Assembly (NCBI GenBank): GCA_001662655.1
Contig: KV460254.1
Reading direction: 5' to 3' (one strand)
Length of the DNA: 64,000 nt
Origin: Pseudogymnoascus verrucosus
Taxonomy: Eukaryota
In this document: positions 3,936 to 23,185 of the stretch, one piece after another
Layout: every line of letters starts with the position of its first letter
How positions within the stretch are numbered: the first letter of the stretch is position 1
Program-made: the position numbers and the translations under genes
Notes under the pieces: generated by a model
Told to the model about the DNA's origin: nothing
Databases searched by the model: none
What the model saw: the letters and a program-made list of their open reading frames with translations, nothing else

Positions 3936-6900
3936 GAGGGTATGTAAGTTCAGGGGGTTAGGGAGGGGTGTACTGTACTGTGTTGTACTGTACATGAAAT
4001 CTGCGGTTCAGTGGTGGGAATTAATTAATATTTATAGCTCTTTATTTTTGATTTCAGTCTATATCCATCTCTCAAACGCCAATGAGGCTATCTCCATGTT
4101 CGTCGCTTGATTGCTGCTCAACTCTTCTGCGCAACCTTTCCAGCCTTTTCTTCAGCATATTTACTTGTCCCTCAGCACATATACAACATATATTAGGATC
4201 GCATCGGTTACGCTACTGTTAATCGTAAGATATATGACAGTTACTATCTATAAATAATATATTATTTTATAGACGCTACGACGGGAGACCTGTCTGAGAG
4301 CGACTCTCCAAGATACCGACAGAACCTAACAACTTAGAATCCAAGCAGAGACTCTGGCAACCGGGACGACCAGAAAGACGATATACCCCGTGCGCGTATT
4401 TGCGAATAAAATCAAGGTTGTTATATGTTGAGAGGTTGGTTATGACTGGAGTAGTGGGGTCGGCGGGGTAATCGGCATTTGTAGGCGCCAACTGCCCGAT
4501 ACCCGCCACGAGCGGGCCGCCCCCAAACGCACGGCCGCCGTGCTCCCATGTAGATCCGATAGACGACACATAGATGGGTTATTTTACGGCTATAGACGAA
4601 TGGATTCTAGTTGTTACTTGGCCCGTCAAGCTTTGAGATTGTAGGTTTACCTCTTGTTCATTTATCTATGTGTATAGACCACGACGTGCCCATTATCTAC
4701 CCTAGATGATGTGATAAAGACCCCTCCACGATGGTAGACTAGGTTCAACTTGAGGATATACAAGTACGGCCTGGTATTTAGACATTGGCTTTGCCTGTAA
4801 TGGATGGCGCAGTACTACGGGGAAGAAAGCCGCGAGTCCAAGACATTATGACACGCATATTTATGACATGCTTCCTTCACTATATTGTTTGCTTCACATG
4901 GCAACCAACCCCAGGCGCCGTGGCTGCACGCTCCGGCTAATGTACCAATCTTAGTGGTTAACCATGGCTCGTAGGGGGTGGCCGGCTTGGATGTAGCCAC
5001 GCTTGACCTGTCCATTATCAATAGCATATGCCGCAAGGATATCTCTTTTCTCCACACGGAATAATTTACCGGAGATGCTTGCACCATTCTCTCGGCCCGT
5101 GACGGGAGTAGGCACAGAGCGTTGACTACTAGGAATATCCTATGCTCTGTCCCATTATTCGGTGTCAATCAGCGGAGGGGGGTGGGGGGGCAGGCGCGTA
5201 GTACGGGAGACGTCCGATTGAGCAAGATTAGTGACCACCCCAGTGTAGACGTTAGTATGTTTGCTTGCCGCTTCGAGGTAATACCCTCGTTTCCTATGGC
5301 CTGTAGTGTATGGAGATCCCCCACCCTGGCGCTTCTCTGTAGGGCAACGTGCATATACAATACGTCAGAGAATACAGCCCTCGGTACGTCAGAAATGACC
5401 AACATGGAAGCCTTTACTTCTTATGTCTCCTGCTCTGCTGTCTTCCTATTCAGTTGCTGGCCCATCTACATGTATTTGCGACCAACACACCCATAAACCT
5501 TCAGCACAATCTTAAAGAATGACTCTTCGAACGATAGAGGGGTTGCATCCCCTTCACCGCTCTTCTTTTTCTGAATTGTGGTCGAATAGGAGTACATCTT
5601 GACACCGGAATCGCCAAACCCCGCAGCCTTGCTGAACACGGGGCGAGCGAGGTTGATTGCCCAACGTAACAATGCTTGTCGGGGCTAGAGACGTGGGTTA
5701 AAAGCCGCAATGAAGAGCCGCATCTTGTGTATGACAGACAGGATGCAATCGCAGTATCTGGAGAGTAGCTGAGTCTTAGTCCAGCCCCTGACAAATATTC
5801 GCGCGCTGAAATTGGCCAGCCTGTGCGTGATCCTCTGCATCCCGCAACAGCAGGGCTACAGTGTCAACCCAATAGCTGGGGCCCAAGGTCATGACATCCC
5901 CAGGCAGGCATCCACCCCAGTCGCGTGTGACTGGAAGCCGACCATCGGATGGAGGCTCCAAGATTCAACAGGCCACGTACGAAATTAAGAGCTTCCTGCA
6001 AAGCCAGGATCATGCGTCGCCAGCCTAGTGGTCATGCGCCGTTGCTCGATAGACCGAATGCGTCCGCAGAGCCTCCCATGGAATGCACTCGAGGATTCCT
6101 AGCAACAGGGTTGATGCAAGGCCGATCGGCAATACCGAGAATCATCAAGAGAGACAGCATGGCGAGCTAGAAAGCTCAGTTGCTATTTCTGAGGGGAATC
6201 GGGGATGCACTGTCTCGGACTGGTTGCCGCCTTCGAGCAGCGTTACTCCTGTTCGCTGATGGTGTAATCCCCCTGACAATGCCTAACTATAGGACCTTTC
6301 TGGAGCCGCAAACTGTTGATCAGCCCATGACGAGCCCCTGGAATGACCGTCCAAACAAGCTGCAATCATATATTAAGGGGAGGATGAGATCAGTAGTTAA
6401 AAGATCATGGCCAGTCAGTGTCAGTACCAGGGTATTAGTCAGAGCCTACTCGAATCCCTAACGTCTCATATAGTAGCTTGTGACCAGGCGAATCTCTAGG
6501 TAGCGCGCGCTATCGCCAGTGGTACTCGAGAGGGGTACCATGTCGTCGCGCAGTCGCACATTCTTTGTCACAATAGTAACGACGGATTTCGTTTGGTGGG
6601 CCGTTTTTTTAACTGGCAGCAGCTGAAAGGAACAATATTGCAAACTCTTGCAATTTTAAGTCGCGTCGTTGCCTCACAGGAATTCCTGGCCTTAACAGGA
6701 GTCGGACGGAGTGGCCGGTGCCATTGTATTACCGACCAGCGAACGAGATTCAACGCAGCGAGAGCAAACGCCAATGATGCCCCGGCCCCTGAAAGAGTTC
6801 TTTATCACACCGCTTCTCCGGAGCCCCTGAACTGTCGTCAGCTTCTATCTTTCAGTGAGATGAGGATGTTCTCCATGAGAGATTTGTGTATGTCCTGGCT

Positions 6901-7504
6901 TGGCACGCCCCTTTAACTCGAGACTCAAACACATAAAGAGTCGTATCGAGACACCTCAGCAGGACTCAACGATGCACAGCATTGAACTTTGGCATATAGT
7001 TTTTCTGGGTCAACCATCGCCTTTGAGCGATCCAACTTGTAAGTTTGGTCCCTTCAGTCTTGGTCGAGCCCCTTATGCGTTCAGTAACTGATAAAGGGGC
7101 AAACCAGAAGACACATCTCGCACTCACTGGGAGATACATCCAGGTTGACAAGAGAATTCCCATATATCAGCACATCAATCTCCAACACGGATAAAACCAG
7201 TGGTCTTAATCGACAGCCCACTCACAACATCTCGTCGCCCTCAACCAACACCACCACTGACGCCTGCCAAGGATGGACGCTGCAAACGCAAACCCTGTGC
7301 TGCTATCAACGATGTACAAATGCTGCAGCTGTGGTAGCCATGTTGTCAAAAGCGGACCACCGGATATATGTATCTGTGGCCACAAGAAGTGCGGGACTTG
7401 TCAAGACCCACATCCACGACCGGAGATAAACGAACCCTTGGTCAAGACTTAAGGATGAAGCCATCAATGAATGTCATTTCTTGGAGACCGCAAGACTGGA
7501 GACA

Positions 7505-8545
7505 TCATTGAGAAACCACGATGCTATGGCGATGTGTGGCCAAAAAATCGCACATTATCCTCGAGATCGATGGCGTCGCTGGAAGTGGAAAGCAATCCAG
7601 TGTTTTGATAGGGATGTCCCCCTTTTGTGACGTCGCCATACATGATGATATTGGCACTGTTCTATGGTTGGGCTTCGGATTATTTGTGTTGATATTGGGG
7701 TTTGACTTGGATATTGTTGTGCCGTCAAGTGGAATTTGCTTCATCTCAGTTGGGATTTTGCTACCCAGCCATGCCAAAGGCACCCTTGCAGGTCTTTCAA
7801 AATACTATGCAGAGTTTTTGAGATCTTGATGGCGGTTTAAAGCAGCGGTGTCGGTTGTACCTAAGCTGTCGTTATTCCCTGACCGCTTGTTGAGCAAGTT
7901 TGTCTTCTATCACATGGTTACATGGTATCATTTGTCAAGGGTGGTTACTCTGTCCAAGAAATGAGGTTGCTGGTCGACCTCTAGCTTTCGGAATCCATTA
8001 ATTATTATGCTCATGTCCTTGACCGCGTCATTTCGTGGACAGTGTTTTATCTGGTGGTTGGCCCACGCGACAGTGACTGGCCTGAGGGATCCAGGCATCC
8101 CATTCCGTTGCCCAGAAGTTCTATTAGCCTTGCGTCTAACCAGACGTCCAGCTCTGCCAGTCACTTCCCCTTGTTTTATATTGATTTGGGGCGGTGCAAT
8201 GTCACGGTCATGGCATGGGGCGGCCGCCATCCAGAAACCAACCACACGTCGTCGTCGCTTGTCACAGAGAGGGGCTAGGTGCATCAGGGTTAGGGGATTC
8301 TCGACGCCCTGCTTCTGCCTATGGAGATATCTATCGGTGGGCCTAGGATCTTCTGAAGTCTGTCTCGCCAATCGCGTGTTATTGAGAAAGTGGGTGCTTA
8401 CTTAAGGTGTGGGATTTGCAGGTTGCTTTTCCATGAAGAAGACTTGGCTTGGTTCATTATCGCGAGATTGACTCCAGAAGCTCGTGGCGCTTTCTGACCT
8501 TTCGACGGTTCGGCATAATGCGGACATAAAGAAGGCAGGCGCATC
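7505..8545 (-). pseudogene. possible decayed protein-coding gene, family unrecognised
   Basis: ORFs 7928-8371 and 7505-7783 lie in the same minus frame, separated by only four stops (TGA, TGA, TAG, TAG). An upstream frame also reads through with TAA/TGA/TAG stops compatible with C>T changes. No homology recognised. Confidence 0.25.
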
Positions 8546-9268
8546 CCATGCTCTCTTTACACAATATACCATGAACCCTCAAAGTGTCGAAAAGTCTAGG
8601 GTACTAGATATTTTCCTATCTTAGGACAGAGTACATTTATCACTTTGCTGCGCAAGTCAAGTCGAGTCGCTCGCAACCTCCACCCTGTGTGATAACATTA
8701 TGATAATATATTATAACAATTTAATCCCTCGCTTTACGGGTTTTGTACGCGCTGGTGCGTCAGCACTCGCGTCACATGCCTATTTTCAATCAACACACAA
8801 GTTCCACACCTGCATAACCTATCATAGCGTAAACATTTGGAGCAAGCCGTCACTCAACAACTCCTATTATTGAAAAAGGTATACCGGCGTCGGGCAGCTA
8901 ATGGGTCGGGTAGGGATTCTAATATAGTAGGAACGGTGTTGCTACGAGCGAGCCAATCGAAATCTGGCGATTCGGAGCTGAAACTCCAACAAGTAAAGCA
9001 GAGCTGTGACGACCAAACACGAAACGCCGTTGGAAGCAATGCACGTCAATGTGGCCTTTCACGTATGTCATGTTGTCATCAAATATTTATAGCTCTTCTC
9101 TCGTTCAGTCCATTCTATAGGGTGGTGCTCACGGCCCTTGGGACACTTCCGATATCCACAACAACATTACCCCAATGCAATCCCCTGCCAAACTCCATGC
9201 TTAACAACCCCCACCAAAGACGCCAGACTAAGTAACCTATTAATCGTAATGCAGAAGGTCCTCCTCCA

Positions 9269-10856
9269 TTAATGTGCGTTTCTCGGTATGCACTCAGCCG
9301 TCATCGCCGGCGCAACCCCACTCTTCTCCATAATATTCCGTTTCGGGCCCTTCAACTTCCTTCCCCTGAACGGGAGTGGTTTCCGCATGTCTTGTTCTGA
9401 CATGAAGCCCACCTCGACGAGCAACTCTTCCACCCAACGACCGGTTTCGAACTGAGATTCGTGGCTCTCATGATTGCGACATGGAGACTGCTTAATCGGT
9501 AGCACCCAGTCCAGGAAATTGTTCCCCATTACCGATTTCCAGTTCCCAACTGCTCCAAGGTCCCATGGGTTTCGCCCAACGGCGAGCTGCAGAATGGCGA
9601 ACGTTCTAGTTGCTCTTGCGTCTCGTTCCAATAAAGTCTCAGGCTCGCTTATGGTCCCGCTGTGCGGTGGAGATGCTGGTGATGATGGTGCAGTAGGTGA
9701 TGATTTCTCACTCTCCGGGAGAGGCAGTGGGTAGGTGATATGCGGATAATTACCCTGTTGGGGAAAAGTGAATGTTGGCGGGATTAGTACAGCAAGTAGC
9801 CATGCACGACTTTTTTTGCTCAGGTTTTCGATTGTCGTGAGGTTTGCGAAAACGAACTGTAGTGAGCTGCATGTCATCCCGAAAGTGAAAAGGCCAAAGA
9901 ATCCGGAGCTAGTAGACAGTTAGAGTTAGTCTTTGATTAAGGCAGGTCTAACCTACACCGCGACAAGAGCCACAAAGTGGCCGTTCAGTTCCGACTGGAG
10001 AAAGGTCAGCAAAATTACTGAAGTAAAATATCAGTGTCGGGTGGTATTGTAAACGCACTGTATTTGACAAATCCTCACTGAGATATATTGCCGTGACAAC
10101 CACCACGAAAAGGCAGTAGAGGAAAGCGTATGCCACAAATTGGACGAAAAATTTGAAGCTATTCTCTCCGACAACCCCACCAACCCTGTCAAAGTTAGTT
10201 TTGGGGCTCCAGGACAAGTCGGCGAGACTATTATGTAACTTGCCATGGACAGTAATGATCCATCTTGTAGACACATCTTCCAATATCGCTGCAGTGATGC
10301 GTTCGGTCTGGTTTCCAGTTGGCGCATTCACTACACCACTTGGGGCGTCCATCTTGGGAACAGACAAAGACATCTTTCGTATAAAATAGCTCCAGTCCAG
10401 GAGAGTCTGCACCGTCGTCTCTGGCTATCGCAGCCTCTGAAGATGGATATTCAGGTCCCAAGGCGTCGTTAGCTCTGCCGGCTACCCTGTTATTCTCCTG
10501 CGAAACGTTCTTGTCGGCCTTGTTATATCTCTTTGCCGCGGGCCCCAGCGGCAGATACCCTGGGTCGACAGTGACAGTATAAACGAGCCTCCCATAGGTG
10601 ATTGTCATGAAAAGAAATAAAACGAAGTATATCGCGAGTAGGGCAGCGGATATGCCAGGGCGCGGCCTATGGCCTCTGAGAAGGAAGTTGACTTGTCTCG
10701 TTAGCATGCTTCGTTCAGTGGCACTTCAACAAATTCAAACTCACCACAGAGTTGCGCAACAAATACATATGTTGCGTATGTTACTGTGCCAGCAAGAAAA
10801 GTTGGGACAATGCGCCCAGCCCACTTGTTGACGGCCTGCGGGTTAACGGGCGCCAT
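9269..10856 (-). CDS. PFA5: DHHC-family S-palmitoyltransferase, Pfa5-like (DHYC variant), multi-exon
   Basis: Cys-rich domain [46 protein letters not shown]-terminal motifs NLTTIE and [15 protein letters not shown] segments present. ATG at 10856 gives [12 protein letters not shown]. Confidence 0.9.
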
Positions 10857-12540
10857 GTCGGTTTCCGGTAGGTCAACTTGTTGTTTGATATGAATGATAG
10901 GTATAGATACTAAAACTCTATGTGACCCCAAACTTTGGAGGATTCGCTTTTAAATGCGACCTCATCTCATCAACAACAATGTCGCGGACGCTGGCGGTTA
11001 AGAAACACATTCGTATCCGTTGCGACTGCCACAAACCTTGGGCAGGCCTGGCCAAGGATCAACAACATTCGGGGCCGGAGAAACTTAAATACGTGACTCA
11101 CCTCGGTATTAACGCGTCGTCGTCGGTTCGACTTCTCACAGCAACCTCTCTCGAGATGAATGAAGAACCTTCCCACCATCATCTACACAACTCACCTATG
11201 TGCCCAGTAGATGAACAGGGGAGACTGTTCAATTGTCACAGGCGAAATATGAAAGTTATGCCAATGAATATATCAAAATGTCGACGCGGCTCCGGCCAAG
11301 GCTGACAAGGATATATCACCTCCTCCCGGTGTAGTTTCTCACCGAGACGTTAGTCTAAGAGCAGTCTCTTACTGAGACATTTTGTGGAGCAGTTCATGCA
11401 CGGCAGCATAGCAATTTATTTTAACAAAGCCTTGTGTTTGTTGAGATAGTTTTATACTGGGAGGGCAAGGCTGAGATGTCGACTACCTACCAATTGAACA
11501 ACGGTATGTTTTCGCACAAACGCTCCTCAAACCCTCTTTATTTGATTGAGAAATATACACTCTTAAGATAAGTCTTCGTTTCATACGTACACACTGCAAA
11601 TATCATCGGCGCAATGCGACTCCAACATGTGACCGCATTGCGACCCTGGAGCGTTCTCTCTACAGTACAGGGCGTACTACGGCTGCTCAGCCACCCCGCG
11701 AGCGAGAATATCCCGGGACGCTTTCTCTGCCCTCATCTATCTTCGTTGTTTTATTAGGGCTGAATTGCCCTGAAACCATAAGAGCAAAATGAACAAATGT
11801 GGAATTCAAGGCTGGGGTATACCGGCTCGCTCGCTCGACTCATACATAGCCGCGCGCTGTTGCATATCGGTGAACAGGCCCTGGCCCTCCCGAGCCGGGA
11901 CAGAGTTCAAAGCCCCGGCAGCCGTGTTATTTTATGCCACGAAAGTGAGGCCACGGGGCTTGAAGTGCCTAGTAGGGCCCATGTCACGCGTTTGCTAGCA
12001 CTGCCATCGCAGTTAATGAGCCTATGACGCCCGATCACCACTACCATCGAAGCCTTTGATTGGCCATGGATGGATGACTTGTCATGTTCGCGGCCATACC
12101 TCCGATGGCTCCCCACTGGCGCCCTGTACCATGACACTGCCCCTTTACCTTGAACTGGTGAATCGGACCTCCCAAGCCGAAATCCAGAGGTGCTCATTTC
12201 ATTCTATTGGGCCTCGGTGTGCTGCTCGGTGTACTAGCGCACCGCAGTTCCTGTCGCCGCCTCCACTTCACTATTACCATCTTCAGACCGCTACTTTTCG
12301 GTGATTCCGGCTTCAAATCGATTGGAAAAGGCATATAGTCACTCCGCCCTATTTTCAAATACGTGTTCTCTTGTCCATGTTAATCCCGTAACGCCCTCAG
12401 GTATCAGGGCACTCATTGGGCTATCCAGGAGAACGGTGGGTTTGGTTGCTTCTGACTATGGGTCTTTGGTTTGTGGTGATGGGCTCGCTGTCACGCCTCA
12501 CTTCTTATACGAAAGACAGTCGAGAGAAGTCACTCTCAAA

Positions 12541-12550
12541 TATATATAGA
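12541..12550 (+). promoter_or_regulatory. probable TATA element of the 74-aa zinc-finger micro-gene
   Basis: TATATATAGA about 250 nt upstream of ATG 12793, followed by a C/A-rich leader. Confidence 0.45.
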
Positions 12551-12600
12551 TATAGCTATGTGCTCACTGAGGGAAGAGGCATCATATTCTCTACCACACA

Positions 12601-12735
12601 CAATCCTCTCAATAAACACATTCTCATTCCCACAGCAACTTCAATCCTCTCAAACACATCCTCATTCCCACAACGACTTCAATTCTTTCAATAAACACAT
12701 CCATCCTCATTCCCACAGCGACTTCAATCCGAAAC
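12601..12735 (+). repeat. three imperfect ~40-nt tandem repeats in the putative 5' UTR
   Basis: Core CTCATTCCCACA(G/A)C(A/G)ACTTCAAT occurs three times, each preceded by AAACACAT. Confidence 0.85.
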
Positions 12736-12792
12736 ATCTTTGTTCCACTGCACCAAAAGCTGTCCAGCTTCCTCTGACCAACTCGAATCAAA

Positions 12793-13017
12793 ATGGCTGC
12801 TTGGAGATGCAAAGGCTGCAGTACCGTCAACGGATCTACTGTCAACAACTGCGCCGGGTGCGGATACCACAAAGCCCAGAAATGGGTCAAGATGATCTTC
12901 TGTGCCCACTGCGATGATGGGCCATATCTGGCTGCCAACAGCGTTGGCTGCATGAGGAGTGACTGTTACAAGTTGTTCGATGGGAACAGCCCGACCAAGT
13001 GGCAACCCAAAAATTAG
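12793..13017 (+). CDS. 74-aa Cys-rich protein with an N-terminal RanBP2-type zinc finger and a second CxxC...C...C module
   Basis: WRCKGCSTVNGSTVNNCAGC fits W-x-C-x2-C-x3-N-x6-C-x2-C exactly. Second module FCAHCDDGPY...GCMRSDC. Good start context CAAAATGG, upstream TATA. Confidence 0.72.
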   Translation: MAAWRCKGCSTVNGSTVNNCAGCGYHKAQKWVKMIFCAHCDDGPYLAANSVGCMRSDCYKLFDGNSPTKWQPKN

Positions 13018-14901
13018 GCTGGTGGCGGGGGGATGGGACAGGAGGTAACCGGAGGATGGAAGGGGACAGGAGGACTGGAGGGGACAGACGGTAGGGGTTG
13101 GGGCGTGGAAGAGCGAGGCCTGTGTATCGAGGTATACCAGATGATGATGGGGTTTGAAATATGGGCTGGCATTAGGATGGCACACTGGTTTGTTGGTTTC
13201 TGTTTTTGGTTCGCCATTGCATACTAATTACCTCGCAGGCCAGTGACGGCACACTACAGAATTCAACTTGAGACAACGCAATACAGTACAGAGGAGAACA
13301 GCACAGGTCATAGCAGGTGATGGGCGTTTCGGGGGCTTAGCATTGATAGGGAGGTTGGATTAAAGGGTGGCTCAGGCCTAGGCGTTTAGGTGGCGGAATA
13401 GTTTATCGATCGCTTTCTTAGATAATTGGAATTGACTTCAACTTGGCACGTCTACATCTCATGCCCAACCACTCACACTGCCTGTTTCTCAGCACCCCCT
13501 AGTCCACAACATTAAGTGAAGTCCAGACAGACACTTCCCATCGTCTTGGGAATGTGGAACATGCACACCTCTTTGTGGCACAGCTTGACCAAGAGTACAT
13601 GATTCGGTGAGATTTTCCGATCTTAAAAACCGCATTTCAACGCTTCATAGCCCTGGATGCCTCTTCTGCACTGCCCCAGCCTACTACCCTCCATTTCCAA
13701 CAAAAAGGGCGATATACTGCTCACGTGATACCAAATTTTAAGGGACTGGGTCCATCCGCCAGGCACCAGCAGAGTCAAAAAACGACACTGCTCCCATTCC
13801 GCTCAGCGTTTGAGCCTTGCACTAAAAGATAACATGCGCCTCTTTAGAATGGGTCCCGGACACCGCCGTCTCCCGATAGAAGCCCAGTTCGCAATCGTAT
13901 TAGTTAGTGGTAAGGGTATTAGTTGGTCGTAAGGCTCAAAAGTTGATCTGAAAACTGGACTTAAAGGGAGCCCACACTCTGCCTCGTAGTACGGCACGGG
14001 CACGAGTGGTAAACAGAGGCGACACGTTCATTCTGAGTGACTTGCTGCGTACCTCCGAAGGCATGGTACTGACGGACAGCACTGCAATACTAATTCTAGT
14101 ATTTTGGTCGTCGTCTCTCACCGCTGGAAGGAGGAGGTTACAAGGCTGAGGCTGGGCGGGCGAGGCTGTACGTTACGTATCCGCGGCCTGAATTCTCGAC
14201 ACTTTGATTCGTTTTATCAACGCCCAATCATACCTGGATGAGTTTGAGCCTCAACCTGAACATAAGCATAATCCCTCATGAGTTGAGTGACAATGGGGTT
14301 GGCGGTCAACTAACTCTGGCTATTGTTGCAACTGATCCAAACAAGGGAAAGGGAATATAATGAATAACATGACCGAAATTTACACTTTGCGTATCCCGTG
14401 GAGGTTCGACAACCATGCCAACAGTTCGCAGTGGGTCTTCACTCACCGAAACCGCCCTTCTCCAGTCGGGATGCACGCTTAACCCGTTACTGTGAGGCTT
14501 TTTTCGGCGCAGTACCGTGGAAGCTGTAGTCTGCCTGGTTATGGTGTGGAACAGGCCTATCGATGGACTCTTTCAGTGGTAATCACTTGGCTTGGCCAAA
14601 GTCGCCTTCTTTCCGGGCACCGCAACGGTGGCATATAGGGTTAGATGCCTGTTGACCTGGCCGTTGTACCCCCCACTGTGGGATGCTGGGGCGAGCGTTC
14701 AAGTGAACTGCTTGGGTTTCAACGCTCCATGCGATCTAACGACCGCCTCGACTGGTTCAGGAGGTATGTTCGGGCGCTCTAGGTGACATGGCAGGCTCAT
14801 TTCGGTGAGTGAGATCGGATTTCTTATGTTTAGCCCTCACATTGGTCAATCGTGTTCCTATTTGTGGCACAGCAATAACGGTTCCTAATGGCATCCCTTG
14901 C

Positions 14902-14909
14902 TATATATA
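14902..14909 (+). promoter_or_regulatory. probable TATA element of the second zinc-ribbon micro-gene
   Basis: TATATATA about 195 nt upstream of ATG 15100. Confidence 0.4.
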
Positions 14910-15099
14910 CGATCTTAGAAGCCGATGAGGGTCAAAAGGCCAGACCAAAAACTCTCATCGCCATTGACATTGACATTTACTCTCACACTCTATTTCTATC
15001 TATCAATTGTGCCACCAATATATATTGCCCAGCAATATCACACCAACACCAACCAGCTTCCTCCCTACCGGCCGCAAAAGCTACAGCTCTGATACAACT

Positions 15100-15444
15100 A
15101 TGGACGGTGTGGCTCAAACTTCAAGATCTATTTCAGTTATGAATATGGCCGCTCCTCAACTCCCACATGAACTTTCCTTCGCCAACTCGAGCGATTCTAT
15201 GACAGCCTGCGGCGCTGGTCATGCACACTCGTTGAGCGATTGCATAAAGCACTGCTCCGATGTTTCCACCAACGACGCGGGCTTTGGAATGGGCTCAGAC
15301 TCAGGGATCCAGTCTCGCGGCGCCCCACGGCTTTGGCAGTGTTGCGAATGTAACGGAGCAGGGCAGACGGTCAACATCATCGCTTGCGCCGGCTGTACCC
15401 ACTATCGATGCGATTATTGCACTGTCTATGTATCACACAAATAG
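15100..15444 (+). CDS. 114-aa protein with C-terminal WxCCxC...CxxCxHxRCxxC zinc-ribbon motif
   Basis: LWQCCECNGAGQTVNIIACAGCTHYRCDYC, a motif I recognise from uncharacterised small ascomycete proteins. ATG at 15100 after a TATA and C/A-rich leader. Confidence 0.72.
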   Translation: MDGVAQTSRSISVMNMAAPQLPHELSFANSSDSMTACGAGHAHSLSDCIKHCSDVSTNDAGFGMGSDSGIQSRGAPRLWQCCECNGAGQTVNIIACAGCTHYRCDYCTVYVSHK

Positions 15445-16100
15445 TGTCTCTGCACCACCGCCATTGACGACAACCACCGGAGGCCATTCTTTGGGCTTTA
15501 CGAGGGAGCTAGGGTGCATTTTTTCAGTTACTATGGACTCGGTGTTTGGCATCATTTGGAATCAGCATGGGACGTTGCAAAGCGTTACGGGAATTTTTCG
15601 ACTTCATGGCAGAGCGAGCGGGATATAGCGGCGAAAGGGGCGGGGTTTTGGCATTTTTTTTGGGGCATTTTTGATATTATTTTCTGTCTTTGTGTTTCTT
15701 TTTTTAGCTGAGATTAAGAATTGGCGCGGCATCATCCATGATTGGCATTTGGTGTTTTTGCATTTGTTGGAACAGGCTTCATGTACGAACAGCTTACTAG
15801 AACAGATCGAACAGACTTGGATAACGGAACGAACTCGTTAGATTTAGACTCACCTCGCACACGGCGCCTGCATTTGTTTTTTGAGTTTGTCATTATTTAA
15901 TACAGTATTGCTTAGACTATTAACTTGTTTGTTACTGATATTGACATCGATACCCGGAGTGAAACATGAGCAATCCTAGACATCATAGAAACCACAAAAC
16001 GTTATTCTATCTCCAAACAAGAAAACAATTCGAGACAAACGGCTTCCACTTGTGCCCTAAAACAGCCCCTCTAACAGCTCCTCCAACTCAGCATCTCAGC

Positions 16101-16847
16101 TCATTTTGGGCTCCACATCATGATACCACCCTCGTCGTCCTTGCTGTCACCAATCTTCGTAACAAACCTGTCCAGCAGGTCGAACCCAATACTGCGATAA
16201 AGACGCTCCCCCATCATGCTCGCCTCCAGTGAAACTGGCACGCCCTCTTTCTGCGCCTGCTCCAGCACCCACGCCATCAGTTTCTTCCCCACGCCCCTTC
16301 CTCGCCATTGCTCCGCCACAACAACACTCTGCACATACCACCGATTATTCCTATCCTCCCTGTCCTTCCAGTGCTTCTCATACTCCAACACCCCAGCCTT
16401 ACTAAATTCCGCTTTCCCTTCGGCGCTCTCACTCCGATTTGGAAACACATATGCCGCACACTTCAAATAAACGCCATATCCCCACTCCACCAACCCCGAC
16501 CACCACTTCTTCTCTTCCTTCTCTACCTGCAGCGCTCCCTCATCGTCCCCGAGCCGAACGCACTGCATATACCCGACCGTCTCCCCATCTCCTACGGCAA
16601 CAAACCCCCTATTCCTGGGGCTCACCATGCGGTTCTTGATCCGTCTTTCAAACCACAGTAAATGATCCTCTGGGTATGACGCTCGGTGAGGTGTAGTCAA
16701 ATCCGAAATTGGCTCGTTCCAATATGCGACTTGCGCGAGCTCTCCTGTACGCTTTGCATCCGCCCATACCATGGGGCGGATTTCCACAGAAGACGACGCA
16801 CTTGCAGGCGGTGGTACCGGCCGGGTTGGAGGCAGTGGAAGAGGCAT
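16101..16847 (-). CDS. GNAT-family N-acetyltransferase
   Basis: Acetyl-CoA binding motif A VVVAEQWRGRGVGKKL and motif B LEASMMGERLYRSIGF. Intronless, 248 aa. Confidence 0.9.
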   Translation of the reverse strand: MPLPLPPTRPVPPPASASSSVEIRPMVWADAKRTGELAQVAYWNEPISDLTTPHRASYPEDHLLWFERRIKNRMVSPRNRGFVAVGDGETVGYMQCVRLGDDEGALQVEKEEKKWWSGLVEWGYGVYLKCAAYVFPNRSESAEGKAEFSKAGVLEYEKHWKDREDRNNRWYVQSVVVAEQWRGRGVGKKLMAWVLEQAQKEGVPVSLEASMMGERLYRSIGFDLLDRFVTKIGDSKDDEGGIMMWSPK

Positions 16848-17565
16848 TTTAGAGGCGTTTTTCTGCCGTGTGCGTGCCGATTTTTTTTATTTGATAGAGA
16901 AGTTGATAGAGTTCTTTGATGAGTTGGAAAGAGAGCGGGAGGGGGTTGCTATTGTTATAACTTTTCTATTGTGATAAGTCAAAATTCTCACGTGAGCGGG
17001 ATTTTTATTTTGCCGCGAGTGAGTCAGGCGGGGAATCTGGCCCGGTTTGGGTGTGTTGCTTACATCGGACCTGCCTCTTTGGGAACTCTATAAAATGCCC
17101 TGTAGTGCCCAAAGCGCACGATTACTGTAGTATGCGTCCGGTGTAGATGGGCGATTTTAGGTGCATGGGCACCTATATGGCCTAGACTGCGTTGCAATGG
17201 AATGTCCAGCTTACTAGGTGGGTAACACAACGTGGTATGCTTACGATGCAAGCGACTCTATGTGATCTAGAGGTATAATAATGTGAGGGTTCCTGGTGTA
17301 TTTGTGGATAGGTTTTCGGATCCGGTCCAACATTCTTAAAAGCTAGAGTTGTTGTGGATTGGCGCTATTTTTGGAATTCAGTAATATGTTGCTAACTTGT
17401 GCGAGAGAGAAGGGGTCAAATAACAATATTATATTCAAAGCTATGATTACTTATTTGGGTATTCTAGCATGGCCAAGATATTTGGCTGCAAGGTAGCAAA
17501 CGCCGTGGCTTAGGTATCATATAACCGTTTCATGATTGGGTGGCCATCCCTTCGTTTCCTATCAT

Positions 17566-20119
17566 CTAAACCTTAAACCCACCTGGTGGATCATCACGCA
17601 CAGCTTCAATCACTGCCTCTCGCATAGTTCTCCTTGGAGCGCGTCGGCCGGTCATAAGCTCGAACTGAGCAATACCCTGCTCGGGCAGGACGTCTAAGAA
17701 GTCGACGATGACCCATGCTTGCCCAGTGCGGGCGCGAAGGTCGCGGATTTGTCTCACAAGGTGAGTTTCAGTGTGGCGATATGCCAGCTGTCAGGTGAGT
17801 AAAGTCAGTCTCAATAATCTATAATCCTCATAGAGAGATCGGTGATGTACATACCTCCATGACAACGCCGCCTGTGGGACTCTGCAGCCACTGTTCGGGC
17901 ATCTCAAACGAAGGGACGGGTTGGTTTTCGACACTGTGCGCGGGGAGGCACGACACGATAAGGGTGGGTGGACGCAGACCTGCGGGCCATGGCTCATCTC
18001 TTGATGGCAGCACCGTGACGACTGGAAGCTCGAACCTGAGCTGTCCGGCCCAGGCATTGAAGTGGTCGGCTACTGCAATAGCATTGGCAAGCGTGCGATT
18101 GAAAATGAAGATTCGACGGCAGCCAAGGCGTATAAGTGCATAGATGGCGGAACGGGCCATGCCTCCTGCGCCAATGATGAGACCAGTAGTCTTGGATGGC
18201 TGGACGGCATTCCGCGGCGACCCATTGCGACGAATCGATGTCATGATGCCGATCCAATCTGTGTTGTCACCGTAAAGGGCAACACATTGACCGGAACGCT
18301 TGGGTTCGGTGGCTTGTAAGGCGAGGGACTGTGTAGACGAGGGCAGTGCGCGCAACGGGACGACGGTGTTCACGGACCCAATGGCGTGGGCATGGTAGCT
18401 GACAGCGGAGAGGTGGGGTACTATGTCCATGCGAAGTGGTTGGTTGGTCGCGGAACCACCGAAATTGGGTTCGTTCGCAAGGCGAAGGAAGTCTTCGACG
18501 GAAGAGGTTTGATTAATGCTATAATCATGCGGCATACCGCAAACTTTATAAGCAGCCCCGTGCATCGCGGGAGAGAGACTGTAGGAGACCATAGCCCCAC
18601 TGATATAGAAGTGGAGGGGCTGAAAGATGGACTTGTGGAACAGTCTTCGAAGAGCCTCTTCCGATGTGAGGCGACTGGTGGTTGGAGTCCTAGTTCGGTC
18701 GAGGACAGGATGGGTGACGGGCGAGAAAATCTTGTTCAGCGCCAGAGTTTCAATTCCGATGCTACCTGCATTATATGCTATAATGGGTAGGTGCGGTGCA
18801 GGGAGTTCTGCTGTTTTCTCCCAGAATATCTTGATGTCGTCGTTATCTTTCAACGTCTTCGCTGTTTGGACAAGTCTGACAATGTCAAAACTGAAGGACT
18901 GGGCTCGACTATAAAGCGCTAGCCGATCTGATTGCAGCCATCCAGAAGGAGGAGGCCTTCCATCATAGTAATGGGCAATGACTTTTGTCCTGCCCTTCTC
19001 ACTGAGGGGTCGTCTGATGTTGCGATCCTCAAAATTCAAATCTATAGCGATGTAGTCGACACCAAGGCGCAGGCCTTGCTCAAGTAAAATGACAGCGATT
19101 TCTTGAGTGAATGGAATGCGAGCCTCTTGACCTACACTTGGCTGGCCTGATTTTGTATGGTCCTCAAGGTCCACCACACTGAGTATGATGGGAACCCCTA
19201 TTTGCCTGCGAATCACGGCCACCAGCTTTGATATCACAGATAGCATACTTGCTGTCCACGTATCGATTTTCAGCTCCACGACATCACCGCCGCCTGATTC
19301 TAACTCAGACATGTCGATGTTTGAAGCGATTAAGTCTGAAAGAGATAAGGACAAGGCAAAGGTATATTGCCTTTTCTCAGGCGGCACAGCTCCAATCGAG
19401 AGTGGATTTTCGAGAGCAGCTAACCCATACCCATTGTTAGTGATGAAGTCAAGAAACCCGGAAAAGTCCTTTTTAGCATCTTTTAAGCCAAAGGAATAAT
19501 TTGGATTTGCTCGGTCCAGAGGGCTGTCGGTGCCATTAGCCTCGCAGCTTGGGTCGTGTAAATTATAGTACTCGAAATTTGAACAAGATCGGTGCACCGA
19601 GTCAGCCCGCTCAAGCCGGCGCCCTTCATCCTCGGAAAGACCGAGAAGGTAACGAATGCGGTTGAAGTTCCGAACGATATGGACCACAGGATGTGATAGA
19701 GAGTATTCCTTCAGCGTCTCTTGGGCTTCCTTGGCCAAGCTTCCCATTCCGCATTCGATAATGCAATTGGATGTGTTCTCCTTTAACATTTTCTGGAGGG
19801 CATAGATGTTCTTCCTCTTAAACTCTTGCTGCCCATGCTCAGATAAAAAGGCCTTCCTAGATAGTCCCGTGACTTCTTCGAAATATTGATCTTCTGTGAT
19901 GAGCCGGCGACCAAGGTGGATAGCTCCAATGAAACCCAGCGACCGTTTGCCTGATCCACGGCAACCAACGAGGACAATAGTAGCATTAGGGGCAAATTCT
20001 CGCCGGCCTTGCGGAGATTTTACACGATAAAGCTCGCCGATTTCAGCCAAAACTGCGTTCCTATCCTGGAGCGCTTCCATATCAGTAGTGGGGGAAGCCG
20101 CCATGATTGGAGGATTCAT
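17566..20119 (-). CDS. qutR: quinate-pathway repressor-like protein (QutR/QA-1S; shikimate kinase-, type I DHQase- and shikimate dehydrogenase-like domains), ~828 aa
   Basis: IVLVGCRGSGKRSLG (SK-like). DVVELKID, LRLGVDYI, DIVRLV (DHQase I-like). YSLSPAMH, GSVNTV, GDNTDWIGI, GAGGMAR, EQGIAQFELMTGRRAP (SDH-like). One GT-AG intron 17854-17788. Lacks the DHQ synthase/EPSPS parts of AROM. Confidence 0.88.
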
Positions 20120-20752: not shown

Positions 20753-23185
20753 ATGAGTCCTCCCGCAGTTCAGCGCAAACGCGTGGCTCAGGCCTGCGAC
20801 CGATGCCGGAGCAGGAAAGATAAATGTGACGGCGCGAAGCCCGTCTGCTCAGCCTGTGCAGTACGAGGGCATTCGTGCTCTTATGACCCAGCCGTAAAGA
20901 AAAGAGGGCTTCCGGAGGGGTATGTACGAGGACTGGAGAACCTTTGGGGCTTTACGATACGGGAGGCACCGGAAGTCGAAGCAAATGTGATTTCCTTGAT
21001 GGAGCAGAGGCACGGAACAGACGCTCTACCACGAGGCTGGAACAGCAAAGATGGCGAGGCATTGTCGGATACATGGAGGAAAAGCCGTTTATCTCGAGAA
21101 TTAGACTCGCTCCTCCCGCTTCTTGATATAACTGATGACAGGCCGGCGAAGAGGAGACGCCAAGATAGCTCCTTTACCCCACCGACTGAGGCTTCCGCAT
21201 TCGATCCCGCATTTGTACCCCCTCGCGAAACATATCCGGTGAAAGGAGAGCAGCAAACCTCCTCTGCCATATTTCCTGCGCCGATTTTCAATGGCGCCTC
21301 GTCTTCAGAGGCAATGAAGCTCACAGATTCCCAACAAATTCACCTTCCCCACAATGCCTGGGAGCTTCTTGATGTATATTTCTCTTATACTCATTGCTGG
21401 TTACCAATTATTGAGAAACATAACTCTCTGCGGGCATCTTATCTCTATCCTACATCAATCTCCTCGTCCATGCCGGGTTCTGGAGACCATGCAGCCTTAT
21501 GGGCGATATTGGCCTACGCAGAATGTCATCAGGCTATTATACGGAGAAACATGACACACGGTCTTCAGCAAAACGACCCTTGGATGGCAAGTGATACGTA
21601 TAAAACTGCCCGAAGCCTTATCCCAGATGAAGACGGCGTCTTTGAGCTTGGACACATTCAAAGTCTACTTATTCTCACCCTTCTAAATATGGGCATGAAT
21701 AGATGGAAGCAAGCATGGTCACTCATTGGTCAGGCAGTTCGCATGGCACTTGAGCTTCGTCTTGAAAAGTGTCCAGATGATGCCAAGTCCAGGAATAGGC
21801 ATACGTTCTTCGGTTGCTTTGTATTGGAAACTCTTGTGGCAGCTCGACTAAACAGAAGCCCTCATCTCCGAGCGCAAGATGCGTTGAACTGCGGCCTGTT
21901 GCTTGAGGATGGCTCGGATGAGTGGAGCCCATGGGTAGACAGCATCGGGATTCGTCGAAACAGTGAAAGCTCTTCTCGAGGTCCCGCTTCGACCCTGAGT
22001 ACATTTAATCGGTTGGTTCAAATATCGGCAGTGTTAAATGCCATTGTCTGCGGATACTCTATTGGAGCCGAGGACCATGGGAAGTTTGACCTACTGCTCC
22101 GTAAATTCGGCTGGGACTCAAAAGCTCTGGACAAACCTGGCCCCCCACTTCTTCCTCATCAGTACCATCTCAGCTGCCTTTATAGCGCCACGCGCGCTCC
22201 TGTGCATGCACACCAACGCGGACAGGCAAGCCGGGCAGAGGAGTCCCTTCCCGACCTACTTGATGGCCTTCGGAAAAATTATGGGCTCGCTGCTGTTCCT
22301 CCTACCTTTGATTGTCTAGCCCATGTTTATATCCGGCAGTACGCTTCCCATGGAAGAACTGTGGCTTCTGAGGAGGCCTTAAATAGCCTGGAGGAGTTAT
22401 TAACTGAAATGGCGCAGACATGGCCTACGTTCCAAGACACCCTCTTGGAGCTGGGTAAGTTCCGGTCTTCAATGTCTGGAGCGAATGTTCCGCTCTCACG
22501 ATTCAGTAACCTCCCGAATACCAACCCAACCACTACAGTTGGGAAAGATATTAATTTAAAGGAAAGTCGACCGCAGAGACATCCGTCACTTGATGAGCCT
22601 ATGAACACGCCGAGTTCATCAGAATACACTTCGTCCGGACAAGCAATTCTTGAAGCTGCGATACAGTTCGACCCCTCGTTACTATTGATGGACGATGAAA
22701 TAAAGCCAATAAGCACTCCCTGGTCCTTGCCAGTTGGAAATCTTACCCTAGCAGCCAATTCTCCCAATATACCTCAGCCAAGCGGAGGCCCGGCGTCGCT
22801 ACCATACTACCCGATGTTTGACTCCCAGACCGATGATGACGCTCTCTTTAACGAGTTCGCAACCTTGGATGCCATGAAATGGCAAGTTCTCACACTCACC
22901 TTGCACTTTTAACCCGCTAACTAACAACGCAGGACCAATAACTGGGACCAGAGCCTCCAGAACCTCGGTTTCACAGACCTGGATAATATGAAGCAAGACT
23001 TCCACGCTTTCTTCCAAGAGCCAAATCTTCGACCCTCCAATGAGCATGATATGGGCGATCATTTAATGGCTGGCTCCGCGGCCCTAATGGAGTACCCAAG
23101 TCCGCACATGGAAGCTAGTCAGATTCTGCAGGCACTCTCTGCGTCCGAGATCCCAGTGCTGCCAAGTCGTCAAGATGGAGGCTGA
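20753..23185 (+). CDS. qutA: Zn(II)2Cys6 transcription activator, QutA/QA-1F-like, ~793 aa
   Basis: RKRVAQACDRCRSRKDKCDGAKPVCSAC...CSY...KKRGLPEGYVRGLE. Fungal TF middle region YFSYTHCWLPIIEK. C-terminal LFNEFATLDAMKW|TNNWDQSLQNLGF joined across a GC-AG intron 22882-22932. Divergent from the qutR-like gene, as in qa/qut clusters. Confidence 0.85.

What the first reader, a model, noticed from the sequence alone, without database searches (positions are those of the whole stretch)
12541..15444. Two co-oriented, intronless zinc-ribbon micro-genes in their own ~5 kb accessory block
Seen: between PFA5 and the GNAT lie two tiny plus-strand ORFs (74 aa and 114 aa). Each has a TATA element, a C/A-rich leader and a long non-coding flank. 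Both carry an aromatic-x-C-(C/x)-x-C...CAGC-x-H/Y zinc-ribbon module (WRCKGC...CAGCGYH; WQCCEC...CAGCTHYRC). Known: such short ORFs are often missed by gene callers, and WxCCxC...CxxCxHxRCxxC proteins of ascomycetes are largely uncharacterised. Inference: a locally clustered family of small zinc-binding regulators (metal or redox buffers, nucleic-acid or protein adaptors). This is the best candidate here for an undescribed system.
Basis: partly seen in the sequence, partly recalled or inferred. Interest (0 to 1): 0.7.

Follow-up and report, generated by a model that had tools for sequence, protein, structure and literature searches.

The report
Fungal zinc micro-genes; one donated domain
Both tiny genes of this soil fungus look real, but they belong to two different zinc-finger types. 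A third was overlooked nearby, and a copy of the 74-residue gene, with part of its untranslated leader, forms the tail of a large patchwork protein elsewhere in the genome; what any of them does is untested.

Summary
Both ORFs, their TATA boxes and C/A-rich leaders are there and exceed chance. The fungus is a Pseudogymnoascus (inferred from homologues). They are not one family. ORF B (114 aa, perhaps 99) is conserved across the genus (57-96%), already annotated as hypothetical in two genomes, and covered unspliced by a contig of a run that looks like RNA. ORF A (74 aa) is a double zinc ribbon whose first finger fits the RanBP2/NZF signature but lacks the ubiquitin- and RNA-binding residues. 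A is 59-63% identical to the last 70 residues of a ~1,090-aa patchwork gene on contig C55; A's 5' leader matches that gene's coding linker. Its BAG and C2H2 blocks also have separate relatives in the genome, so A was probably the donor. A third co-oriented micro-ORF of B's type (7273-7452) lies across PFA5, so some clustering is real. 'Accessory block' is not shown. Most likely these are independent zinc-stabilised binding modules; no function or joint system is shown. The scan's earlier notes held nothing like this.

The parts
7273..7452 (+).
   Evidence: full module found 2 times in the window (B, C) and 0 times in 150 simulated 64-kb windows. Conservation and expression untested.
7040..7272 (+). 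candidate 5' leader of ORF C: GT..AG candidate intron about 7039-7107, then a C/A-rich stretch
   Evidence: read from sequence; composition 33% A, 34% C; inference
9092..10958 (-). PFA5-like DHHC palmitoyltransferase gene lying between ORF C and ORF A (approximate, transcribed extent)
   Evidence: PF01529 E 9.9e-13; spliced contigs of X1 and X2
12541..12548 (+). TATA element of ORF A
   Evidence: TATAWAWR, 1 of 10 on the + strand
12601..12734 (+). three imperfect 38-45 nt repeats in the leader of A; copy number varies
   Evidence: D1, D2; a 45-nt skip in X3 and X5 (table 5)
12749..12792 (+). end of A's 5' leader, homologous to the coding linker before the fused copy on C55; one in-frame stop 5 codons before the ATG
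   Evidence: 24 of 39 nt ungapped; 1 of 300 shuffles and 0 of 300 random 60-mers reach it; 9 of 17 residues match the linker of P0010
12793..13017 (+). ORF A, 74 aa double zinc ribbon: C6/C9/C20/C23 (RanBP2/NZF-type finger) and C37/C40/C53/C58
   Evidence: paralogue at G000:C55 E 1.3e-22; dN/dS 0.49
14902..14909 (+). TATA element of ORF B
15100..15444 (+). ORF B, 114 aa (99 aa if Met16 at 15145 is the start)
   Evidence: 6 homologues at 57-96%; alignment; X1 contig 15102-15452; Atlas cluster of 63 ascomycete proteins, 0.93
   Evidence: all six ligands invariant in 7 of 7 sequences; 15203-15257 is the only anchor inside B for the most diverged contig of X3
15334..15420 (+). C-terminal module of B, W-x-C-C-x-C-x11-C-x2-C-x-H-x-R-C-x2-C (eight candidate ligands)
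   Evidence: C81 C82 C84 C96 C99 H101 R103 C104 C107 invariant in 7 of 7
16101..16847 (-). GNAT acetyltransferase, right-hand neighbour
   Evidence: PF00583 E 5.7e-13

Best explanation
A, B and probably C are independent single-gene units, each with its own promoter, encoding small proteins folded around structural zinc. B and C belong to an uncharacterised ascomycete type with an eight-ligand module (probably two zinc ions; inferred). B also has a conserved His/Cys site in an otherwise poorly ordered N-terminal half. A is a different type, two C4 ribbons, the first with the RanBP2/NZF fold. They most likely act as small binding modules for other proteins (about 50%), less likely for RNA (about 12%) or as metal sensors or stores (about 15%); this step is inference. 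A copy of the A gene, with the last ~45 nt of its leader and its stop codon, was joined in frame to the 3' end of an unlinked patchwork gene (C55) that had also taken a C2H2 block and a BAG domain from other genes; the leader became coding linker. Shown: the ORFs, their conservation, the homology of A and its leader to C55, and separate relatives for the three C55 blocks. Inferred: translation, zinc binding, direction of capture (about 65:35 for A as donor), function.
For: B: 6 of 8 candidates are full-length homologues at 57-96% with all ligands invariant; a gap-free X1 contig covers it. A: 5 of 7 profile hits are family members, two free-standing (P0009, 61%; P0015, 74 aa, starts at the same Met) and three fused. 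All eight Cys are kept in P0009; no gaps across A in X3 (10 differences in 343 nt) or X5 (8 in 310). dN/dS 0.49 against C55, p 0.028, 69 codons. Best model pLDDT 87; residues 1-29 superpose on RanBP2/NZF fingers at 0.5-0.9 A. Capture: C55 blocks match C63 (62%), the C-terminal BAG domain of the ordinary BAG gene on C6 (44%; 65% for P0011) and A (63%). The 45 nt before the fused domain are 13% G and 47% C, against 22-33% G in the five steps before. P0010 and P0011 keep a Met 2 and 4 residues before the domain's Trp.
Against: The domain tree has 0 of 4 inner branches supported, so direction is not shown. A and P0009 share a 2-residue insertion absent from all fused and outgroup sequences, which fits either direction. 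dN/dS of 0.49 is weak constraint and mixes two branches. No fold match reached E 0.001 or Z 3, and three of five models of A scored under 60. B's model is unusable (pLDDT 36). The two differences in X1's copy of B both change an amino acid (Q80K, A97P). X1 and X2 are only guessed to be RNA by the tool and may carry DNA; X2 also has a contig in non-coding DNA at 14329-14537. ORF C has no conservation or expression data.
Confidence: 0.68

Rival explanations
1. A is an escaped fragment: the 3' end of the C55-type gene was duplicated here, an internal Met became the start, and the linker decayed into a leader. The free domain could then compete with the full-length protein, as microProteins do.
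For: A's leader reads in frame for about 54 codons with a single stop that aligns with a linker Ser; P0009's leader is open for about 90 codons; A and P0009 share a derived insertion.
Against: Homology stops about 45 nt before the ATG: the rest of the leader is no closer to the linker than 421 of 500 shuffles. B's leader is also open in frame (156-codon frame), so open C/A-rich leaders are ordinary here. The distant P0015 is free-standing from the same Met. C55's other blocks have separate relatives, one of them an ordinary BAG gene.
Confidence: 0.25
2. One reading: A and B (plus C) are a co-regulated cluster of one family that works as a system.
For: Three co-oriented zinc micro-ORFs within 8.2 kb. 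Of 22 genome-wide matches to the tail pattern (controls 11), 5 have a proper head, in 4 genes, and two of these are B and C; chance of a pair within 8.1 kb is 0.003 for 4 genes, 0.024 for 10, 0.097 for 20. A and B share a 26-residue local alignment.
Against: A and B differ in ligand pattern; the alignment is 17.7 bits and its CAGC is not kept in relatives. No shared repeat of note between the two promoters. A lacks an anchor in the diverged X3 contig that anchors B. The clustering test is after the fact and the gene count is a lower bound.
Confidence: 0.15
3. The proteins are metal or redox buffers (metallothionein-like), B's His/Cys motif acting as a labile site.
For: B has 10 Cys and 6 His; its invariant C-x3-H-x-H-x4-C-x2-H-C lies in a region with no confident fold.
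Against: Cys content is 11% and 9%, with conserved aromatic and other non-ligand residues, unlike metallothioneins (recalled: about a quarter to a third Cys, few or no aromatics). A has a defined fold model.
Confidence: 0.15
4. A and C are non-functional or decaying ORFs; only B is a working gene.
For: A's family is small (5 members among 7 hits); the fused P0010 has lost one Cys; C has no homologue in the genome at E 10.
Against: P0009 keeps the frame, all eight Cys and the stop position at 61% identity; no gaps in X3 or X5; dN/dS below 1; intact TATA and start context.
Confidence: 0.1

Closest known systems
RanBP2-type / NZF zinc finger (PF00641; ZRANB2, RBM5, Nup153, TAB2/TAB3, Npl4)
   Same: A residues 4-23 fit W-x-C-x(2,4)-C-x3-N-x6-C-x2-C exactly (signature read in passages of bioRxiv 10.1101/2025.06.19.660640; regex); the model superposes at 0.5-0.9 A over 25-29 residues.
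   Different: 13.8 bits against a cut-off of 27. Ser-Thr stands where ubiquitin-binding NZFs have Thr-Phe, and Gly-Ser-Thr-Val where ZRANB2 has Trp-Ala-Arg-Arg. It is followed by a second, different ribbon and forms a whole 74-aa protein. B does not fit the signature.
Double zinc ribbon (PF12773 DZR, PF18912 DZR_2)
   Same: Two C4 ribbons in tandem; A's relatives P0015 (E 2.6e-5) and P0011 (E 0.04-0.09) match weakly; Atlas neighbours of A are zinc-ribbon and DZR clusters at 0.85-0.87 (leads only).
   Different: A itself has no DZR hit at E 1 and no relative reaches the cut-off.
Uncharacterised ascomycete WxCCxC...CxxCxHxRCxxC proteins; PF26652 'probable double zinc ribbon'
   Same: B's nearest Atlas cluster is 63 ascomycete hypothetical proteins of 115 aa (0.93, 196 of 256 features); PF26652 appears at 0.79. 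The genome has a two-module gene on C29 and an intron-split one on C82. B is annotated as hypothetical V501_08948 and GMDG_00885.
   Different: B has one module plus the extra His/Cys motif; PF26652 could not be scored here and 0.79 is a lead only.
[quoted passage not shown]
   Same: The C55 gene carries C-terminal copies of domains of other host genes and lies head-to-head with a DUF7580 gene. The paper reports zinc fingers at the C-terminus of 52 Sordariales NLRs and a kinase copied from CHK-2.
   Different: C55 has no P-loop motif and no NACHT or NB-ARC hit, so it is not an NLR; the paper finds head-to-head NLR pairs rare.

Membership tests
RanBP2/NZF zinc finger (ORF A finger 1) | signature W-x-C-x(2,4)-C-x3-N-x6-C-x2-C | tested here: met
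RanBP2/NZF zinc finger (ORF A finger 1) | PF00641 gathering score | tested here: not met
   13.8 bits against 27, E 0.035
RanBP2/NZF zinc finger (ORF A finger 1) | two-hairpin C4 fold | tested here: inconclusive
   rmsd 0.5-0.9 A over 25-29 residues, Foldseek probability up to 0.99, but E 0.5 and Z 2.9 at best
NZF ubiquitin-binding branch (ORF A) | Thr-Phe after the second Cys | tested here: not met
   A has Ser-Thr; TAB3 and HOIL-1 fingers have Thr-Phe
ZRANB2-type RNA-binding branch (ORF A) | base-contacting Trp and Arg residues after the conserved Asn (positions recalled) | tested here: not met
   NGSTV in A against NWARR in ZRANB2
RanBP2/NZF zinc finger (ORF B) | signature | tested here: not met
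   no regex match in B; no Pfam hit
Double zinc ribbon PF12773 (ORF A) | gathering score | tested here: inconclusive
   no hit for A; relative P0015 24.7 bits against 27.3
   B and C
Ascomycete WxCCxC...CxxCxHxRCxxC type | the same pattern in ORF A | tested here: not met
   A has neither the CC head nor the H-x-R-C-x2-C tail
PF26652 Zn_ribbon_double | profile score | not testable with these tools
   no such family was reported by the Pfam copy; Atlas 0.79, 127 of 256 features
Metallothionein | very high Cys content, few aromatics (recalled) | tested here: not met
   8 of 74 and 10 of 114 Cys; conserved Trp, Phe, Tyr
Any zinc finger | measured zinc binding | not testable with these tools
   needs purified protein
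NLR with integrated domain (C55 gene) | NACHT or NB-ARC nucleotide-binding domain | tested here: not met
   no P-loop in the 1,089-aa splice model; only BAG in Pfam

The most novel reading that the evidence does not exclude
The C55 gene is a non-NLR bait protein. It collects copies of host domains (a C2H2 block, the BAG domain, the A double ribbon) at its C-terminus and is paired head-to-head with a DUF7580 gene that acts as the executor. Free A would then be a host target of some antagonist's effector, and the B/C/A stretch a reservoir of small zinc modules from which such baits are drawn.
Probability: 0.07. Interest if true: 0.8.

Novelty: new variant of a known kind. Interest (0 to 1): 0.36.

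Why it matters
The proteins are small variants of known zinc-ribbon folds with no shown function, so the finding is less than the undescribed system that was proposed. Its value lies in two things. It gives a traceable case in which a whole micro-gene, with part of its untranslated leader turned into coding linker, appears as the terminal domain of a patchwork protein while the free gene survives; donor and recipient lie in one genome and can be tested. It also adds an unlisted third micro-gene and an invariant His/Cys motif to a widespread, unstudied ascomycete zinc-module type.

Tried and rejected
No RNA holder is on record for the stretch, and no X1 or X2 contig covers A's coding region; neither is evidence against expression. 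The word-seeded search with A found no candidate; the search among longer proteins gave 1 of 5338 candidates, P0020, a C55-type fragment that ends without the ribbon in frame. I did not use it for direction because its tail may run into an intron. Two metagenome scans and one viral scan confirmed 0 of 133, 0 of 132 and 0 of 120 pattern matches, so no orthologous DNA was available for synteny or orthologue dN/dS. Two of the 7 profile hits were dropped: P0012 (RanBP2 nucleoporin, generic finger) and P0013 (acid phosphatase repeat). Solved structures: no hit better than E 0.066 for A, none for B. B's model was not used for a fold search (pLDDT 36). A folded with the UBL-BAG part of the C6 protein gave no answer (score 0.00). 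No Rfam match in 4000-17500. The domain tree was unresolved. Homology of A's leader repeats to the C55 linker repeats was rejected (421 of 500 shuffles). The WxCCxC head pattern was too noisy to count genes (223 matches, 113 control); the CGxGHxH pattern gave 10 matches against 5 control and was not followed. The C24 hit to P0008 (E 0.04) lies inside a long unrelated frame. Exact look-ups of A, B, C and alternative starts: 0 of 6 in the collection. Paper searches with no paper: WxCCxC (30), Pseudogymnoascus + lineage-specific genes + zinc finger (62), RanBP2-type zinc finger + BAG domain + fungi (63), Zn_ribbon_double (81), DUF7580 (85), GMDG_00885 (100). One search listed two unrelated reviews (listing only). 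Supplements of PMC12113139 (1 file) and PMC5606880 (4 files) did not hold B's P. destructans identifiers; they may use other identifiers or be cut. Earlier findings of the scan: nothing by place, sequence or words for this locus; one search listed 8 prokaryotic or phage zinc-ribbon notes that I did not use.
Full report
Observation. ORF A (12793-13017, 74 aa) and ORF B (15100-15444, 114 aa) lie on the plus strand between a DHHC palmitoyltransferase and a GNAT, with the motifs quoted. Two of the ten plus-strand TATAWAWR sites of the window are at 12541 and 14902, and both leaders are G-poor. Simulated copies of the block gave one such motif ORF in 1 of 2000 runs and two in 0 of 2000. GC content is flat across the block and there are no long terminal repeats. 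The window is G000:C49:186001-250000 of a 30.2-Mb genome; named homologues place it in Pseudogymnoascus (inference).

ORF B is an ordinary, conserved, uncharacterised gene. Six of eight candidates are full-length homologues at 57-96%, two annotated as hypothetical proteins (V501_08948, GMDG_00885). Only Met16 is invariant, so the protein may be 99 aa. The 191-aa database model starts in a frame that runs through the TATA box (compare) and is probably over-extended. The Atlas places B next to 63 ascomycete hypothetical proteins of 115 aa (0.93). The tool only guesses that runs X1 and X2 are RNA, but X2 skips two GT..AG introns and X1 lacks 170 nt within PFA5 (table 8). X1 holds a 351-nt contig over 15102-15452 with no gap and two differences, both amino-acid changes at variable motif positions; it has no depth in the ten bins from 11005 to 15014. 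This is modest evidence of an unspliced transcript; DNA carry-over is not excluded. One more diverged contig of X3 (judged by its shared depth of 20.9) has anchors in order from PFA5 through B and the GNAT to the quinate repressor, and its only anchor inside B is the His/Cys motif (table 5). So B is not an accessory insertion. That contig has no anchor in A, which may be absent or too diverged there.

ORF A is a different protein. Against B it scores 17.7 bits over 26 residues, and the shared CAGC varies in relatives of both. Residues 4-23 fit the RanBP2 signature (passages of bioRxiv 10.1101/2025.06.19.660640) but score below the Pfam cut-off. The best model has pLDDT 87, three of five are under 60; residues 1-29 superpose on ZRANB2, RBM5, Trabid, TAB2 and Nup153 fingers at under 1 A, without a significant score. 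The Thr-Phe of ubiquitin-binding fingers and the Trp-Ala-Arg-Arg of ZRANB2 are absent. A second C4 ribbon follows. A profile search of 1.84 billion representatives gave 7 hits, 5 of them family members: free-standing P0009 (61%, with a recognisably homologous leader) and P0015 (74 aa, 32%), and fused P0010, P0011 and P0014. Close relatives X3 and X5 show no gaps across A.

The main new result is A's paralogue. It is 59-63% identical to the last 70 residues of a long frame on C55 (E 1.3e-22), 156 of 207 nt identical, ending at the aligned stop, with dN/dS 0.49 (p 0.028). The C55 gene is about 1,090 aa on a three-intron model: an N-terminal region without Pfam hit, C2H2-like fingers, a C2H2-WWRC block, a BAG domain (E 1.5e-14), a repeat linker and the A-like ribbon. 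Homology runs about 45 nt into A's leader: 24 of 39 nt, reached by 1 of 300 shuffles and 0 of 300 random window 60-mers, and the leader read in frame matches 9 of 17 linker residues of P0010, including the Arg-Ile-Lys-Met at A's start. Further upstream there is no homology. Each C-terminal block of C55 has a separate relative in the genome: C63 for the C2H2-WWRC block (62%), the ordinary UBL-BAG gene on C6 whose last 87 residues match (44%; 65% for P0011), and A. Serial capture by C55 explains this more simply than three escapes, and the 45 nt before the fused ribbon have leader-like composition. The tree does not resolve direction (0 of 4 branches supported), so I put capture at about 65% and escape at 25-35%.

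Clustering. A scan of the window found a third plus-strand micro-ORF, C (7273-7452), across PFA5, with a full B-type module. Such a module occurs twice in the window and 0 times in 150 simulated windows. Genome-wide, 22 matches to the tail pattern (11 control) gave 5 with a proper head, in four genes: B, C, a two-module gene on C29 and one on C82 whose head needs an intron that I read by eye. A pair within 8.1 kb has a chance of 0.003 for four genes and 0.097 for twenty; the count is a lower bound and the test is after the fact.

Mechanism. Shown: frames, conservation, promoters by consensus, homology to C55. Inferred: A binds two zinc ions in separate C4 sites; B and C bind two through eight ligands; B may bind a further metal at its His/Cys motif. 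The likeliest role is a small binding module for other proteins (about 50%), since A's domain also works as a terminal add-on to a larger protein and lacks the known RNA and ubiquitin contacts. Metal sensing or storage is about 15%, RNA binding about 12%. Nothing shows that A and B act together.

Comparison and novelty. A works like a RanBP2/DZR-type ribbon but meets neither Pfam cut-off nor the binding signatures of two known branches. B and C belong to an unstudied ascomycete type near PF26652, which I could not score. Six paper searches returned nothing on these proteins; the library lacks most subscription journals. PMC12258605 (passages) describes captured C-terminal domains in fungal NLRs, but C55 has no nucleotide-binding domain. 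Its head-to-head DUF7580 neighbour leaves a bait-and-executor reading open at about 7%. Verdict: real micro-genes, a new variant of a known kind, with a clear case of domain exchange and no shown function. Interest 0.36.

Noticed in passing
window 7273-7452 (+): Third co-oriented zinc micro-ORF (ORF C) of B's type, with a candidate intron in its leader; conservation and expression untested.
   Followed up: partly
L005 4463-7991 (+) and 1792-4023 (-) (G000:C55): A ~1,090-aa patchwork gene (C2H2 fingers, BAG, A-like ribbon) lies head-to-head, about 450 nt apart, with a DUF7580 gene whose N-terminus resembles HeLo-like proteins (resemblance recalled; no Pfam or PDB support).
   Followed up: partly
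L007 about 4740-5220 (-) (G000:C82): Intron-split gene with a B-type module. An inverted partial copy of its 3' end lies about 120-300 nt downstream and could form a hairpin RNA; AT-rich, transposon-like DNA lies upstream.
   Followed up: no
L080 1306-2471 (-) (G000:C63): Gene with the C2H2-WWRC block that is 62% identical to the one in C55, ending in another small C4 motif, tail-to-tail with an ankyrin-repeat gene.
   Followed up: partly
window 12601-12734: Leader repeat of A has three copies here, one unit fewer in X3 and X5, and apparently one copy in the source of P0009.
   Followed up: partly
window 11466-11487, 12139-12170, 15533-15558, 15766-15832: Short non-coding stretches kept in the most diverged contig of X3; candidate regulatory elements (table 5).
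   Followed up: no
window 14329-14537: A low-depth contig of the RNA-like run X2 lies in non-coding DNA between A and B; DNA carry-over or a non-coding transcript.
   Followed up: no
window 17828-20119 (-) and 20753-22912 (+): Divergent quinate-repressor-like gene and Zn2Cys6 activator next to the GNAT; ordinary quinate regulators.
   Followed up: no
window 14974-15099: B's leader is open in frame for 42 codons and its last ~25 codons are similar in five of six homologues, with no consistent ATG; a non-AUG extension is possible.
   Followed up: no
L013 / L073 (G000:C29:316492-316749, -): Gene with two B-type-like modules in neighbouring exons, resembling the PF26652 double ribbon.
   Followed up: no
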